NCBI RefSeq assembly: GCF_009914755.1
Contig: NC_060926.1
Reading direction: 5' to 3' (one strand)
Length of the DNA stretch: 64,000 nucleotides
Origin: the human T2T-CHM13v2.0 reference genome, Homo sapiens
Of the stretch, positions 12,626-17,065 are shown piece by piece. Under the pieces are notes generated by a model that made no database searches, had not been told where the DNA came from, and worked only from the letters and a program-made list of their open reading frames with translations. The position numbers and the translations under genes are program-made. Each line of letters begins with the position of its first letter. Position 1 is the first letter of the stretch.

Positions 12626-15285
12626 TGTCCTCCAGGGTCTCCCCACCGACAAACCTTCCCCTCTTTCCAGATTGTCTGTCAGCCCCAGCAGCAGCTTACA
12701 GGCCCAAGTCAGAGACTGGGGCTGCAGTTTTTACTCCCTTCTCTTTCTTAAACTGTACATCTACTTAATAAAAATAGTCAGCCAGTTATTTTAATCAAAT
12801 CCCCTTATTGCTATATTTTTATTTTATCAGAAGCTGAGGAAAAGAAATAGAAGCTTTCATACTTGAGGCGAACATGAATTTAAATTGCAATTTCCCCATC
12901 AGAGCTCTCTATCCTCAGGAGAGGGACCACAACAGAACCAAAACTTCCCAGTGGGGAAGGCCAGTGCTGTGAGCTGCTCAGGACAGGCATCTCCTGGGTG
13001 TGTCCCTCCTGGCAGGCGTTAGCAGTTGTCTAACAAAAACCTCCCCGTAAGCTCATGTCAAAAGGCATCTTAATCAAAAAGGTGTATATAGAAATTTTAG
13101 CTTATTTTCTTCAATTAGTTTTTTTTAAGAAAAAGAAAATACAGGTAATAATTCTTTTGTTGGTGATTATCTTATTGTCCCAACATTAATCTTGATTGTA
13201 GTCTTTCTCAGTGACTCTAATCCTCCTGGCCACTGTGCCATAAATTTTATGGTCATTTTCTATAATAAGCCACAATAAAAAAAAAGTCCATTTCTTCTGA
13301 ATGTTTACTAATTATATCCAATTAAATATATTTTATTATTTATAAAGGCATTTTAAATGACCCATATTGAAATTAACCTTTGCCATTAAGTGTCAAATTC
13401 TGTACAGAGCTAGACTATGTGATCGAGACTACACATCCTCTGACATTTCAGAGGCGGAAAGTGTCTCTTGTGGTCTGGAGGAATCAGAAAAAGATGTGAA
13501 GAAGGAAGTGGGACCGTCCCTATGCACCGGGCACAAGTCAAGAGAAGGAAGGACGGAGGACACATGGAGACCATGTGAAGAGCAGAGCTGACCCCAGGGT
13601 GAGGCCCCAACCCAAAGCCAGATCCTCTCTGGAAAGGTCAGATGTGAAAACTCAGTCCAAAGAAATTGCATGTGATCCCTTTAACCACTAACTCTTTCAC
13701 TACTCACCCCTCTGGTTTGCAAATGTTTAAAAAGAGAAGGTGCAAATTTCACTCCCCTCTTGGTCCCAAGACCATCAACAAATCTTACCCCTCATGATCT
13801 CAATTCTGTGTCTCCTCATACTGAGGCTCTGTGCCCCTCCCCATTCATACAGAGAAGCTGTGAAAGTCCTGGGTTTCCCACAAGCAGAGGCCAAAGAATG
13901 GCCAGTCCTCGCAGACAGAGCCTGCAGGCTAGGGACCTCCATGGCTCCCATCAGCCCCCAGCCCACCCAGCCTACAGAAAACAGAGCCCTTCCATGTATA
14001 TTCCCTTCTAAAGATGTTAGTGGATGTCTGGGTTCCTCTGGCTCCTAATCTTATACCACATTAGGAAAATGCTTCCCATTCAAAACACTAAAGCCCACTC
14101 TTAAAATGGAGTGATGAACAGGAACACCAAAAAGAAAGAGAGAATTTGGAGGAAAAAAAACTACTCAAAAGTAAGTTTTAAGTAAAAGATGCCCTCAAAT
14201 TTTCATACCATTTAAAAAGAGCTCATAGCGTCCATTTAGTAAGACTGAACCATTTTCATTACTAACCTATTGGAAATTGCATATGCCCTTTAATGCAAGA
14301 TTATAATAAAACCCAATCATGCAAGATTCCCAACAACAACAACAAAAAAAAGCAGCTCTCCTCAAAGCAAAGGTCGCCAGATACAAAGTAAATGCCAGAT
14401 TTTATCTAGCTGTTTGAGAACACAGTCTGCTGAGCTGATTTAAGCAAAGGCAGCTGCGTGTAGGTCATTTGTTTGTCCTGGATTTAGCCCTGAACTGAGC
14501 AGCACGAAGCAAAAAAGAGGCTGGACTCTCCTTGGCCACACGGACCTCTGCTCAGAAACAGGCCCATCTGCCCAGACTCACCTTGTCCCTTTTGTCCTCA
14601 ACTGAGTCCCTCATTGGACATATCCCCCACCCAGCACAAGACCAAATCTGCACCAACACAAGAGCCAAGTCAAAGGGACTGGCTAAATCTCCTGTAGTTC
14701 GAATAAATGCCAATAATTACAACCACATGCACTTCGTATACAGGTCCCAAATCTGAAGTCTCCTTCATCTTTTAAACCTCTGCTTGATGAGTCTTTGCAG
14801 AAAGTTCAAGTGACCTAATTTTTTCTAGAGTACCAGAAGTGATTGATGTTTATAAGGTACACCTTAGGCAATGCACAGAACAGAGATATTGGTCGACTCA
14901 TCAAAGATTAAATTATGTCCTACATAATTTTAAGTGTTATAAATATTGCAGTTAGTTGGGAATTAGTAATCCATCTAAAGTGCATATCTGTATGCGCATA
15001 GAAGACATTATTTGATAAATAATTATCGCTTAATAAGTATGTGCTAACATTATGCTTCCAGTGACAGAATGAAGCTTTAGGAAGGAAAAAAAAAGTCTCA
15101 AAATGTCAATGTAACTAAGAAAAAGATTTCAAACCTTCAGCATGGTAGTTCTCAAAGTCTGGATTCACAGCATCAGCATCATCTGAGAACTTACTGGAAA
15201 TGGAGGTTTCCATGATCCACCACAGACCTGCTGGATCAGAATCTCTGGGGATGAGGCCAGGTCTCCTGCCACCTAGCAAGCCCTC

Positions 15286-15308
15286 TGAAGGGGTGGGTTG
15301 CCCCTCCA
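15286..15308 (-). mobile_element. Terminal 23 nt of HERV-K LTR5 U5 (att site), inverted
   Basis: Reverse complement TGGAGGGGCAACCCACCCCTTCA is the LTR5B-type 3' terminus. Confidence 0.9.
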
Positions 15309-15432
15309 ATTCCATCACAGGCTTTTAAATACTCTGAGATTACATCTGAGCCTGCGGGAACCTTTCCTTTTAATGACTTAACGGCTGATTGACACTCAGG
15401 ATTGGCGTCTTCGTATGCCATCAACTCCACTA
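15303..15432 (-). pseudogene. gag: HERV-K (HML-2) gag fragment, capsid C-terminal region
   Basis: Translates VELMAYEDANPECQSAVKSLKGKVPAGSDVISEYLKACDGIGG, versus recalled HML-2 Gag VELMAYENANPECQSAIKPLKGKVPAGSDVISEYVKACDGIGG. Confidence 0.93.
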
Positions 15433-15579
15433 CGCCCATCTCCGCCACTCCGGATTCGGGGATCTGAACCCGACTCCCTTTCGATCCGCTGAGGGCAAGG
15501 GAGGCCATTGCCTGTCCCTTCGGAACGGCGCTCGCCCATCTCTCAGGACCGACTGACCCGTGTTCAACTGCTGTTTCAC
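15433..15579 (-). rRNA. 28S rRNA-derived fragment A (pseudogenic, upstream piece)
   Basis: Minus strand AACAGCAGTTGAACACGGGTCAGTCGGTCCTGAGAGATGGGCGAGCGCCGTTCCGAAGGGAC...GATCGAAAGGGAGTCGGGTTCAGATCCCCGAATCCGGAGTGGCGGAGATGGGCG matches mammalian 28S rRNA. Confidence 0.95.
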
Positions 15580-15691
15580 TGGACGCCGCCAGAACAGCGA
15601 CGCTTTCCAAGGCACGGGCCCCTCTCTCGGGGCGAACCCATTCCAGGGCACCCTGCCCTTCACAAAGAAAAGAGAACTCTCCCCGCGGCTC
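15576..15691 (-). rRNA. 28S rRNA-derived fragment B (pseudogenic, natively just downstream of A)
   Basis: Minus strand GGGGAGAGTTCTCTTTTCTTTGTGAAGGGCAGGGTGCCCTGGAATGGGTTCGCCCCGAGAGAGGGGCCCGTGCCTTGGAAAGCGTCGC...GGCGGCGTCC matches 28S rRNA. Confidence 0.95.
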
Positions 15692-15797
15692 ATTTTTCTT
15701 TCTCTACACTTTGTCTCTGTGTCTCTTTCTTTTCCAAGTCTCTCGTTCCACCTAACGAGAAACGCCCACAGGTGTGGAGGGGCAACCCACACCTTCA
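15690..15797 (+). mobile_element. HERV-K LTR5 (LTR5B-like) U5, last ~105 nt
   Basis: TTTCTTTCTCTACACTTTGTCTCTGTGTCTCTTTCTTTTCCAAGTCTCTCGTTCCACCTAACGAGAAACGCCCACAGGTGTGGAGGGGCAACCCAC.CCTTCA. Confidence 0.93.
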
Positions 15798-16554
15798 CCC
15801 TCCAGCTAATTCTGATATGGGATAATGTTGGAGAATCTCAGGACTAAAGGGAAGCCTTATTAGTGAGGAATCCTCTAAGCACGGCCTTGAAGGTCAGGTG
15901 AGATAACAGGATGCTAACAGATGAGGCCCCGAAGGGAGAAAGAGCCCAGGGGCAGAAAGCAGACGTTGTATTTGAGAACCAGCAAGAGTCTACTTTGGTT
16001 GAAATATACAATCCAAAAAGGTGAACAGCAGAAGTTGATGCTGGAAAAAAAAAAAAGATATAGCTCAGGTCATAAAAAACTATACTATATTCTGCAGGCT
16101 ATGAGATGTCAACGAGAATCTTACGAGAATCAACGGCAAGATCAAAGCTATCCATCAGCAAATATCTTTTGAAATCAGATTCACTACCACCTTATACATA
16201 ATACAAGATGACAGTGAAGTCAGGAAATTACACTGATCAGCCTTTTCTCCAAATATTCCTCTAAGGCTTTTCTACTGATAATCAAAAGATCCAAATTTAT
16301 AACTACAATATCCTTAGCATCTTAATTTTACATTTAGAAGTTCTGAACCATTTAACTGCAATAGAAAAGCTAGAAATGACATGCTGCTTTATTTCTCTTT
16401 GTAGACATTATCATTATCAGAGATGTCTCTCACTTAAGTGATGAAGACTTAAGAAAGCATCACCAGTATGAACAGATTACTTTTTTGTAATGAAAATTAA
16501 TAACCCTCTGAATTGCCTCCAGCAATAAGATTGAATGGCACAGTTAAAAGTAAT

Positions 16555-17065
16555 AAAGAGAAACTTAAATGTATATTACTAAGTGAAATGTATATTACTG
16601 AGTGAAGCCAATCTGAGAAGGCCACATACTGTATGATTCCAATTATAAGACATTCTGGAAAAAGCAAAACTATGGAGACAGTATAAAGATTAGTGGTTGC
16701 CAGGGGTTTGAAGGGAGGGAGGAATGAATAGGAAGAACACAAAGGATTTTTAGGGCAATGTAACTACTGAGTGTGATACAATAATGGTGGATACCTATCA
16801 AAACAAATGTGCCCAAACTCATAGAAGTACAACAGCAAGAGTGAACCCTAATGTAAACTATGGACTCTGGGTGTTAATGATGTATCAGTGCAGGTTCATG
16901 AAACATAACAAATGTGCCCCTCTGGTCCTCTGGTGAGAGACATTGATCAAGGGGGAGGCTGTGTGTTTTGAAGGAAAGAGGTAGAGAGTATATGGAACTT
17001 TCTATGCCTTCCACCTCAATTTTGCTGAGAACCTAAAACTGCTCTTACAAAATAAAACATATTTT
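16555..17065 (+). mobile_element. L1MC1/2-like 3' end
   Basis: TACTGTATGATTCCAATTATAAGACATTCTGGAAAAAGCAAAACTATGGAGACAG, GTGAACCCTAATGTAAACTATGGACT and CCTAAAACTGCTCT. Confidence 0.8.

What the first reader, a model, noticed from the sequence alone, without database searches (positions are those of the whole stretch)
15286..15797. Segment orientation and junction microhomologies reconstruct a four-jump reverse-transcription path
Seen: read on the + strand, the order is antisense U5 (23 nt), antisense gag (~130 nt), antisense 28S A, antisense 28S B, then SENSE U5. The U5/gag junction shares TGGAGG (15303-15308: recalled gag ...GGAATTGGAGGAGC vs U5 ...TGTGGAGGGGC). The 28S A/B junction shares GTGA (15576-15579). 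The 28S B/U5 junction (~15680-15692, TCCCCGCGGCTC) resembles the recalled LTR5 CCCC.GGG.CC stretch. The gag/28S junction (~15432-15434) shows at most 1-2 nt of overlap. Inference: tRNA-primed minus-strand synthesis began at the U5 end, hopped through three RNA templates (hence all antisense), and finally copied or annealed to a second minus-strand strong-stop DNA (hence sense U5). This one model explains every orientation and the second att end. It implies that 28S RNA was co-packaged in the particle.
Basis: partly seen in the sequence, partly recalled or inferred. Interest (0 to 1): 0.8.

Follow-up and report, generated by a model that had tools for sequence, protein, structure and literature searches.

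The report
Chimeric HERV-K/28S cDNA insert, two U5 ends
A 512-base insert in a human PID1 intron is a fossil of a retroviral reverse transcription that went wrong: it hopped from HERV-K RNA onto ribosomal RNA and back, and was still pasted into the genome by the viral integrase.

Summary
Window 15286-15797 reads, on the + strand: 23 nt of antisense LTR5 U5 end, about 124-130 nt of antisense HML-2 gag (capsid C-terminal part), two antisense 28S rRNA pieces in permuted order, then 106-118 nt of sense U5 ending at the LTR terminus. The ends are TG...CA. They are flanked by an exact 5-bp duplication (CCCTC) of an old host repeat, so the viral integrase inserted it.

Junction homology exceeds chance at two junctions. 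U5/gag shares 5-6 nt (p about 0.001). 28S-B/U5 shares 10 of 12 nt (p about 0.0002). The 28S A/B junction shares 4 nt only if a 1-nt indel is allowed. The gag/28S junction shares none. At both significant junctions the homology lies on the donor side, which fits synthesis left to right.

I also found related inserts:
- ERVK-17 (10q24.2) has an inverted U5 cap and a 6-bp duplication.
- Two inserts of about 250 bp are snap-back strong-stop DNA.

All enter the second strong-stop DNA within about 1 nt of the same site. Packaging of 28S rRNA in the particle is inferred, not shown. Its parts are known from experiments; I found no report of a natural two-U5-ended insert (limited search).

The parts
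15281..15285 (.). Left copy of the 5-bp target-site duplication CCCTC
   Evidence: Sequence. Paralogues of the host repeat have one CCCTC where the left and right flanks overlap (L057, L063, L068).
15286..15308 (+). Antisense LTR5 U5 terminus, 23 nt, starting TG. It is read as the 5' end of a tRNA-primed minus-strand DNA.
   Evidence: Inverted repeat I1 with 15775-15797, 22/23. 23/23 match to the antisense 3' ends of LTR5 copies.
15303..15308 (+). Junction 1 microhomology CCTCCA, shared by antisense U5 and antisense gag (8/9 and 11/15 when extended leftwards)
   Evidence: p=0.0012 against random junctions. Only 5 nt with 8 of the 11 gag copies.
15309..15432 (+). Antisense HML-2 gag, capsid C-terminal domain region
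   Evidence: 39 proviral matches at 76-94%. Opposite strand to ORFs with Gag_p24_C and zf-CCHC.
15433..15575 (+). Antisense 28S rRNA piece A (about nt 1242-1387 from the start of the Rfam LSU match). Its junction with gag has no overlap.
   Evidence: 95-96% to 39 rDNA units. LSU orientation. Coordinates. Junction.
15576..15691 (+). Antisense 28S rRNA piece B (about nt 1438-1553). The first 4 nt (TCAC) are shared with the end of piece A if one extra T is an indel.
15680..15691 (+). Junction 4 imperfect homology TCCCCGCGGCTC: 28S has TCCCCGGGGCTC and LTR5 has TCCCCTGGGCCC (10/12). The window keeps the 28S variants.
   Evidence: p=0.0002.
15692..15797 (+). Sense LTR5 U5, the last 106 nt of the LTR, ending CA. 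It is read as a copy of a second minus-strand strong-stop DNA.
   Evidence: 39 LTR5 matches at 92-97%. Entry point is 106 nt from the LTR end. The snap-back elements enter at the homologous point.
15798..15802 (.). Right copy of the 5-bp target-site duplication CCCTC

Best explanation
The insert is an integrase-mediated insertion of a dead-end HERV-K(HML-2) reverse-transcription product. Only the final sequence is observed; every step below is inferred from it.

1. Minus-strand DNA was primed at the primer-binding site and copied the last 23 nt of U5.
2. The growing 3' end then switched templates four times:
   - to gag RNA, guided by 5-6 nt of homology
   - to 28S rRNA near nt 1387, with no homology
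   - to 28S rRNA near nt 1553, with 0-4 nt of homology
   - onto a second minus-strand strong-stop DNA, at a G-rich patch 106 nt from its 5' end (10/12 homology)
3. It ran off the end of that second DNA.
4. After second-strand synthesis the duplex carried a U5 attachment end on both sides. Second-strand synthesis was perhaps simply extension of the second strong-stop DNA along the first strand.
5. Integrase processed both CA ends and joined them to the target with a 5-bp stagger.

The product has no promoter, primer-binding site or polypurine tract, so it could not move again.
For: - Integrase signature: TG...CA termini, 23-nt inverted U5 ends and an exact 5-bp duplication of a single CCCTC in the host repeat.
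- All RNA-derived pieces are antisense when read from the left U5 end. The only sense piece is U5, which can be copied from an antisense DNA.
- Homology exceeds chance at J1 and J4 and in sum.
- Homology lies upstream of the crossover only. At J1 the 12-nt upstream window has 9 matches and the downstream window has 7, of which 6 are the overlap itself. At J4 upstream has 10 and downstream has 4. The donor variants are kept.
- Only one full-length copy exists in the genome (of 40 of 1114 candidates scored, self plus rDNA rows only).
- Independent parallels:
  - ERVK-17 is flanked by a 6-bp duplication CACCTG and ends in an inverted U5 cap.
  - The ERVK-17 cap arms differ from each other at 1 of 95 positions. 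They share two substitutions and a 5-nt deletion relative to the same element's 3' LTR, so a second strong-stop DNA from another template was used.
  - L078 (253 bp, duplication AGATG) and L079 (260 bp, duplication ATCTAT) are snap-back U5 palindromes.
  - All four elements enter U5 at ...CCC|(A/T)T(T/A)TTTC, 106 nt from the end.
- Template switching with microhomology and patching-in of host RNAs are established for retroviruses (passages of PMC4997597, and PMC5131818).
- Self-priming of strong-stop DNA is known in vitro (passage of PMC4668388 citing Guo 1997).
Against: - Two of the four junctions give no clear homology: J2 has none, and J3 has it only with an indel.
- The target duplication is 5 bp. 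All 5 ordinary solo LTRs whose flanks I read unambiguously had 6 bp. L078 also has 5 bp.
- The parents used for the statistics are present-day copies, not the real templates.
- The 12-nt test window was chosen post hoc.
- No orthologous empty site from another primate could be examined. The empty site is inferred from 71-81% identical paralogues.
- No direct evidence shows that 28S rRNA was inside a particle.
- How the far end lost any copied tRNA/PBS tail before integration is unexplained.
Confidence: 0.8

Rival explanations
1. Opposite polarity. The first strand began at the right-hand U5 end (118 nt of strong-stop DNA). It then copied pre-existing cDNAs of 28S and gag as DNA templates, and ended on the 5' end of another strong-stop DNA.
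For: The structure is formally symmetric, with a U5 end on each side. The 6-nt overlap at J1 fits either direction.
Against: - It needs separate antisense cDNAs of 28S (two) and gag to exist first.
- At J4 it would use only 1 nt of homology and leave the 10/12 match unexplained (p about 0.0002).
- The window keeps the 28S variants in the homology block, not the LTR5 variants.
Confidence: 0.07
2. The same first strand, but the last step was not an invasion of a finished strong-stop DNA. Two growing minus strands annealed by their 3' ends over the 12-nt patch and primed each other, completing both strands at once.
For: It explains second-strand synthesis without a polypurine tract. The right arm needs a strong-stop DNA of only about 118 nt. 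It uses the 10/12 complementarity.
Against: The snap-back relatives show strong-stop DNAs of 143-146 nt being entered internally at the same patch, so internal invasion clearly happens. The final sequence cannot distinguish the two. This is a variant of the best explanation, not a contradiction.
Confidence: 0.3
3. DNA-level patchwork. An ordinary LTR5 or provirus insertion was later rearranged (inversion, deletion, filler DNA at a break) and picked up rDNA and gag fragments.
For: Complex filler insertions at breaks do occur. Two junctions lack clear homology.
Against: - Both outer ends are exact LTR termini abutting one 5-bp duplication of an uninterrupted target.
- A normal insertion has a U3 end on one side.
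- No U3 or R sequence is present.
- Every RNA-derived piece has the same polarity.
Confidence: 0.03
4. A LINE-1 made the chimera, by template switching of ORF2p during target-primed reverse transcription, as in U6/L1 or 5S chimeric retrogenes.
For: L1-made chimeras of small RNAs are known (from general knowledge, no call).
Against: There is no poly(A) tail, no T-rich target and no long duplication. The ends coincide to the base with the retroviral att ends TG...CA, and the duplication is 5 bp.
Confidence: 0.02

Closest known systems
LTR-mediated retroposition, i.e. chimeric retrocopies made by template switching of LTR-retroelement reverse transcriptase (Tan et al. 2016, PMC5131818, passages read, which also cite the HERV-K/FAM8A1 case of Jamain 2001)
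   Same: Host RNA copied inside a retroelement cDNA. Microsimilarity at the fusion points (median 6 bp there; 5-6 nt and 10/12 here). Several templates can be combined. Integration is by the element's own integrase.
   Different: Those chimeras keep two direct LTR-element flanks and can be transcribed and move again. Here there is no LTR, only two inverted U5 ends. The cargo is rRNA plus gag in antisense. The product is a dead end.
Non-homologous retroviral recombination and 'patch repair' with packaged host RNAs (review PMC4997597, passages read: Linial 1987, Hajjar & Linial 1993, Duggal 2007, Zhang & Temin 1993 as cited there)
   Same: Tertiary host templates with chance microhomology are spliced into minus-strand DNA. 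Packaged non-coding RNAs serve as templates.
   Different: Those are experimental recombinants that stay within an otherwise normal provirus. In the passages shown by my term search of that review, the only rRNA named among packaged host RNAs was 5S; '28S' has 0 occurrences in its main text. Here 28S is the patch and the product is a natural germ-line insertion.
Self-priming (snap-back) of minus-strand strong-stop DNA, described for HIV-1 in vitro (Guo et al. 1997, as cited in PMC4668388, passage read)
   Same: A strong-stop DNA serves as template for a 3' end that pairs with it. This yields sense U5 joined to antisense sequence.
   Different: In vitro it is an artefact that nucleocapsid protein suppresses. 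Here the invading 3' end came from a 28S copy, not from the strong-stop DNA itself, and the product was integrated.
ERVK-17 (10q24.2) and two U5 palindromes of about 250 bp in the same genome (L071, L078, L079)
   Same: U5 att ends on both sides, target duplications of 5-6 bp, and entry into U5 at the homologous position 106 nt from the LTR end.
   Different: In those three, the invading end is the 3' end of a 143-146-nt strong-stop DNA (identical turn in all three) and there is no host cargo. The chr2 element has only 23 nt of the first U5 and carries gag and 28S pieces.

Membership tests
Retroviral integrase-mediated insertion (HML-2) | Element ends TG...CA | tested here: met
   15286 TG and 15796-15797 CA.
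Retroviral integrase-mediated insertion (HML-2) | Short target-site duplication of fixed length (5-6 bp for HML-2; the range is recalled) | tested here: met
   CCCTC on both sides. Paralogues show a single CCCTC. All 5 solo LTRs whose flanks I read unambiguously had 6 bp. L078 has 5 bp.
Retroviral integrase-mediated insertion (HML-2) | One U3 end and one U5 end (a normal provirus or solo LTR) | tested here: not met
   Both ends are U5 and no U3 or R is present. It is therefore an aberrant substrate, not a provirus or solo LTR.
LTR-mediated retroposition chimera (Tan 2016) | Host-derived retrocopy flanked on both sides by discontinuous parts of one LTR element in direct orientation | tested here: not met
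   The flanks are U5 fragments in inverted orientation. The cargo is rRNA, not mRNA.
LTR-mediated retroposition chimera (Tan 2016) | Microsimilarity at fusion points beyond chance | tested here: met
   J1 p=0.0012, J4 p=0.0002, sum p=0.002 and 2.5e-5. J2 has none and J3 is ambiguous.
L1-mediated chimeric retropseudogene | Poly(A) tail, 7-20 bp duplication, T-rich nick site | tested here: not met
   None is present at 15270-15810.
Snap-back strong-stop DNA integrants (ERVK-17 cap, L078, L079; a class defined here) | Sense U5 arm entered at the G-rich patch about 106 nt from the LTR end | tested here: met
   chr2...GGCTC|ATTTTTC, 106 nt from the end. The others...TCCCC|TTATTTC.
Snap-back strong-stop DNA integrants (ERVK-17 cap, L078, L079; a class defined here) | Long antisense U5 arm (143-146 nt) turning directly into the sense arm, with junction ATGGAGGATCCCCTTATTTC | tested here: not met
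   Only 23 nt of antisense U5 here, then gag and 28S. That junction occurs exactly 3 times in the genome, and none is at this locus.

The most novel reading that the evidence does not exclude
The human genome holds a small class of integrase-inserted dead-end products of HML-2 reverse transcription that carry a U5 attachment site at both ends.

- Members found so far: this chr2 gag/28S chimera, the 5' cap of ERVK-17, and two snap-back strong-stop DNAs of about 250 bp.
- All were made by a 3' end priming on a second strong-stop DNA at one G-rich landing patch 106 nt from the U5 end.
- The long arms (143-146 nt) end where an alternative LTR start site (position 826) has been reported. This suggests the strong-stop DNAs were copied to the end of RNAs begun there. 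Whether such RNAs lack the repeat needed for the normal first jump rests on LTR region boundaries that I recalled and did not check.

If so, strong-stop self-priming and cross-priming happened in the germ line. HML-2 integrase accepts U5/U5 DNA in vivo. 28S rRNA was within reach of the reverse-transcription complex.
Probability: 0.45. Interest if true: 0.7.

Novelty: new variant of a known kind. Interest (0 to 1): 0.6.

Why it matters
Retroviral template switching, host-RNA patching and strong-stop self-priming are known mainly from cell-culture vectors and test-tube reactions. This insert is a natural, fixed record of all of them in one molecule. Each jump is readable to the base.

It shows four things:
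- The integrase of an endogenous retrovirus joined a DNA with two U5 ends to a germ-line chromosome.
- Two minus-strand initiations can contribute to one integrant. The ERVK-17 cap, whose arms differ from its own 3' LTR, shows this directly.
- Large-subunit rRNA can be a template.
- Annotation pipelines will see such inserts only as scattered LTR5, HERVK-int and rRNA fragments.

It also gives a simple search signature: outward-facing U5 ends sharing one target duplication. That signature makes the frequency of aberrant reverse transcription in past retroviral activity measurable.

For the host locus it is probably neutral. A RefSeq 'silencer' feature (15374-15668, from the supplied annotation) overlaps the gag and 28S-derived parts.

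Tried and rejected
- Rfam scan of window 14000-17000 at E<=1 found nothing, although the 28S pieces are real. The short, permuted fragments escape the LSU model. The rDNA identity came from a search of the window's own genome and from Rfam run on the rDNA locus.
- The search of earlier findings was not open.
A 30-nt gap range found only this locus.
- I listed the exact 14-mer of the U5 end: 302 hits, 296 listed, 6 of the 'A' class not shown. I then looked by eye for outward-facing pairs.
  - Three candidate pairs turned out to be unrelated. C20 (L072) and C3 (L073) are two solo LTRs each with its own 6-bp duplication and no HML-2 sequence between them; C1 (L074/L075) is two unrelated LTR ends 22 kb apart whose outer flanks share no duplication.
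  - Both arms must keep the 14-mer exactly, so old elements are mostly missed. This census is a lower bound.
- The 20-mer of the snap-back turn, with up to 2 mismatches, gave 3 exact hits. The 7 two-mismatch hits are no more than the reversed-pattern control gave (10).
- Literature: ten full-text searches found no description of a natural two-U5-ended insertion, of a HERV-K/28S chimera, or of the inverted U5 cap of ERVK-17.
  - In my term searches, PMC3228705 had 0 occurrences of 'inverted' or 'hairpin', and PMC3590776 had 0 of 'palindrom'; the latter calls ERVK-17 'lacking the 5' LTR'.
  - Several format errors were corrected and resent.
  - Three older papers were not held. Subscription papers, supplements and Dfam/Repbase notes were not seen, so 'not in print' is not established.
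- APOBEC-type editing was considered. Of the 11 substitutions in the 28S parts, 9 are at CpG sites and occur on both strands, so there is no editing signal.
- No orthologous primate locus could be examined with these tools.

Full report
WHAT IS THERE

Window 15286-15797 (512 bp, human chr2, PID1 intron according to the supplied annotation) begins TGAAGG and ends CCTTCA. Its terminal 23 nt form an inverted repeat, 22 of 23 complementary. Both arms are the 3' terminus of the HERV-K(HML-2) LTR (LTR5).
- The left arm matches the antisense end of fetched LTR5 copies 23/23.
- The right arm continues as sense LTR5 for 106-118 nt.

Three pieces lie between the arms.
- 15300/15303-15432 matches 39 HML-2 proviruses at 76-94%. 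In two of them (L032, L041) the matching stretch lies inside an ORF with Pfam Gag_p24_C and zinc-knuckle domains, on the strand opposite to the window's + strand. It is therefore antisense gag, from the capsid C-terminal part.
- 15433 to about 15579 and 15576-15691 match the rDNA repeat at 95-96% (39 units each). Rfam places LSU rRNA on the + strand of the rDNA locus L002, and the window matches its minus strand. Both pieces are therefore antisense 28S.
- Counted from the first base of the Rfam match, the pieces are about nt 1242-1387 and then 1438-1553. The order is permuted and 50 nt are skipped.

A search with the whole element found no second copy in the genome (40 of 1114 candidates scored).

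IT IS AN INSERTION MADE BY INTEGRASE

CCCTC lies directly before 15286 and directly after 15797. The flanks belong to an old interspersed repeat, with 39 paralogues at 71-81%. I aligned six paralogues to the two flanks separately.
- In three of them (L057, L063, L068) the left-flank alignment ends, and the right-flank alignment begins, on the same single CC(C)TC.
- In two more (L060, L067) the right flank aligns from that point, but the left alignment stops short.
- One (L064) was uninformative.

So the target was continuous and exactly 5 bp were duplicated. TG...CA ends plus a short fixed duplication are the integrase signature. Having two U5 ends, rather than one U3 and one U5, is abnormal. 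All 5 ordinary solo LTRs whose flanks I read unambiguously had 6-bp duplications, so 5 bp is the less common length.

THE JUNCTIONS

- J1 (antisense U5 to antisense gag). CCTCCA at 15303-15308 is shared with gag copies L032, L033 and L034. Eight other copies carry G at 15308, leaving 5 nt. Leftwards the two parents also agree at 8 of 9 and 11 of 15 positions.
- J2 (gag to 28S A). No shared base.
- J3 (28S A to B). TCAC is shared if the extra T in the window's TTT run is an indel. Otherwise nothing is shared.
- J4 (28S B to sense U5). Only 1 nt is a perfect overlap. However, the last 12 nt of the 28S piece (TCCCCGGGGCTC in rDNA) match the LTR5 sequence just before the entry point (TCCCCTGGGCCC) at 10 of 12 positions. 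The window keeps the two 28S-specific bases.

I compared these with 200,000 random donor/acceptor positions taken from the same parent sequences:
- J1 overlap of at least 6 nt: p=0.0012
- J3 overlap of at least 4 nt: p=0.03
- J4, at least 10 of 12 upstream matches: p=0.0002
- J2: not significant
- summed overlap of 11 nt: p=0.002
- summed upstream matches of 28 of 48: p=2.5e-5

The 12-nt window was chosen after I had seen J4, and the parents are modern copies. The values are therefore approximate.

DIRECTION

At J1 and J4 the extended homology lies only to the left of the crossover, and the left-hand parent's variants are retained. A growing 3' end that anneals to a new template keeps its own sequence through the homologous patch. 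The + strand therefore grew from left to right.

This agrees with polarity. From the left U5 end every RNA-derived piece is antisense, as in a minus-strand DNA primed at the primer-binding site. The only sense piece is U5, for which an antisense DNA template (a strong-stop DNA) exists in every reverse-transcription complex.

The reverse reading would need pre-made cDNAs of 28S and gag. It would also leave the 10/12 match unexplained.

RELATIVES IN THE SAME GENOME

The exact 14-mer of the U5 end occurs 302 times, of which 296 were listed. Outward-facing pairs within 25 kb were this locus and four others.
- Three of them (C20, C3, C1) are unrelated LTRs; in C20 and C3 each LTR has its own 6-bp duplication, and in C1 the outer flanks share none.
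- The fourth is the provirus at C10:100703746-100711134. By position and description it is ERVK-17 at 10q24.2. It is listed as human-specific and without LTR age in PMC3228705 (table passage), and is called 'lacking the 5' LTR' in PMC3590776 (passages).

The structure of ERVK-17:
- It has a complete 3' LTR, the viral body and the primer-binding site.
- After the primer-binding site come 95 nt of U5, and then a turn into 143 nt of inverted U5 that ends at CA.
- The whole element is flanked by a perfect 6-bp duplication, CACCTG.
- The two cap arms differ from each other at 1 of 95 positions. They share two substitutions and a 5-nt deletion relative to the element's own 3' LTR.

The cap was therefore copied from a second strong-stop DNA made on a different template.

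A search with this cap found two more palindromes.
- L078 is 253 bp, has the duplication AGATG, and its arms are identical at 106 of 106 positions.
- L079 is 260 bp, has the duplication ATCTAT, and its arms are identical at 81 of 81 positions. It carries an extra 23 nt of sense U5 plus a 7-nt primer-binding-site fragment at one end.

The turn sequence is identical in the three loci and occurs nowhere else (3 exact hits; 7 two-mismatch hits against 10 for the reversed control).

In all three loci, and in the chr2 element, the sense arm starts at the homologous point, 106 nt from the LTR end, just after a C-rich run.

The long arms (143-146 nt) end in GGGATCC, 140-146 nt from the LTR end. An alternative LTR start site at position 826 of the 968-nt LTR, which is 143 nt from the end, is reported in PMC4379556 (passages). 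That these long arms are full-length strong-stop DNAs of such RNAs is my inference.

MECHANISM, AND WHAT IS SHOWN VERSUS INFERRED

Shown:
- the segment identities, strands and breakpoints
- the target duplication
- the excess and the sidedness of homology at J1 and J4
- the existence of other two-U5-ended integrants that use a second strong-stop DNA

Inferred:
- tRNA priming
- the order of the four jumps
- whether the last step was invasion of a finished strong-stop DNA or mutual priming of two 3' ends
- how the second strand was completed
- how any copied tRNA tail was removed before integrase acted
- that 28S rRNA was inside the particle rather than met after entry

In the passages shown by my term search of PMC4997597, 5S is the only rRNA named among packaged host RNAs ('28S' has 0 occurrences in its main text), and it describes microhomology-guided patching of host RNA into retroviral DNA.

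AGE

The 28S parts differ from present rDNA at 2 of 203 non-CpG sites and 9 of 56 CpG-site positions. This suggests roughly ten million years, with a very wide error. No outgroup could be checked.

COMPARISON AND NOVELTY

The nearest described processes are LTR-mediated retroposition (PMC5131818), non-homologous retroviral recombination with host-RNA patches (PMC4997597), and in vitro self-priming of strong-stop DNA (PMC4668388 passage).

The chr2 element works like these but is not a member of the retroposition class as defined. It has no direct LTR flanks and no mRNA cargo, and it cannot move again.

Ten literature searches found no description of a natural two-U5-ended insertion or of a HERV-K/28S chimera. 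Subscription papers, supplements and repeat-database notes were not seen.

I rate it a new variant of a known kind. It is of real interest to retrovirologists as a readable molecular fossil, but probably without effect on the host.

Noticed in passing
L071 347-7735 (G000:C10:100703746-100711134; ERVK-17, 10q24.2): This provirus is described in print as lacking its 5' LTR. In fact it ends in an inverted U5 cap (95 nt of antisense U5, then 143 nt of sense U5) and is flanked by a perfect 6-bp duplication, CACCTG. The cap arms differ from the element's own 3' LTR by two substitutions and a 5-nt deletion, so they came from a second strong-stop DNA.
   Followed up: yes
L078 1501-1753 (C10:100138019-100138271) and L079 1469-1728 (C15, ends at 25927693): Two stand-alone U5 palindromes of 253 and 260 bp have their own target duplications (AGATG, ATCTAT) and identical arms. 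They look like integrated snap-back strong-stop DNA. Both carry a variant (TGTAGGGG...CCCCTACA) that makes the last 23 nt of U5 itself palindromic. In L079 the left end appears to use this internal look-alike of the att end.
   Followed up: partly
L072 (C20:25298400-25307600), L073 (C3:189704200-189712400), L076 (C3:104412600-104417400): These are pairs of inverted solo LTR5 copies 3-6 kb apart that are 94-97.5% identical to each other. The two outward-facing pairs each have separate 6-bp duplications and no proviral sequence between them. Why such similar copies sit so close together in inverted orientation was not explained.
   Followed up: partly
window 15374-15668: The RefSeq 'silencer' feature in the supplied annotation covers the end of the antisense gag piece and most of the CpG-rich 28S-derived pieces of the insert.
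   Followed up: no
window 15130-15285 and 15798-15860: The insertion target is an old interspersed repeat with many paralogues at 71-81% identity. I did not name the family with a tool.
   Followed up: partly
window 14000-17000: The Rfam scan at E<=1 does not detect the two antisense 28S fragments. Covariance-model screens would therefore miss rRNA-derived patches of this size.
   Followed up: yes
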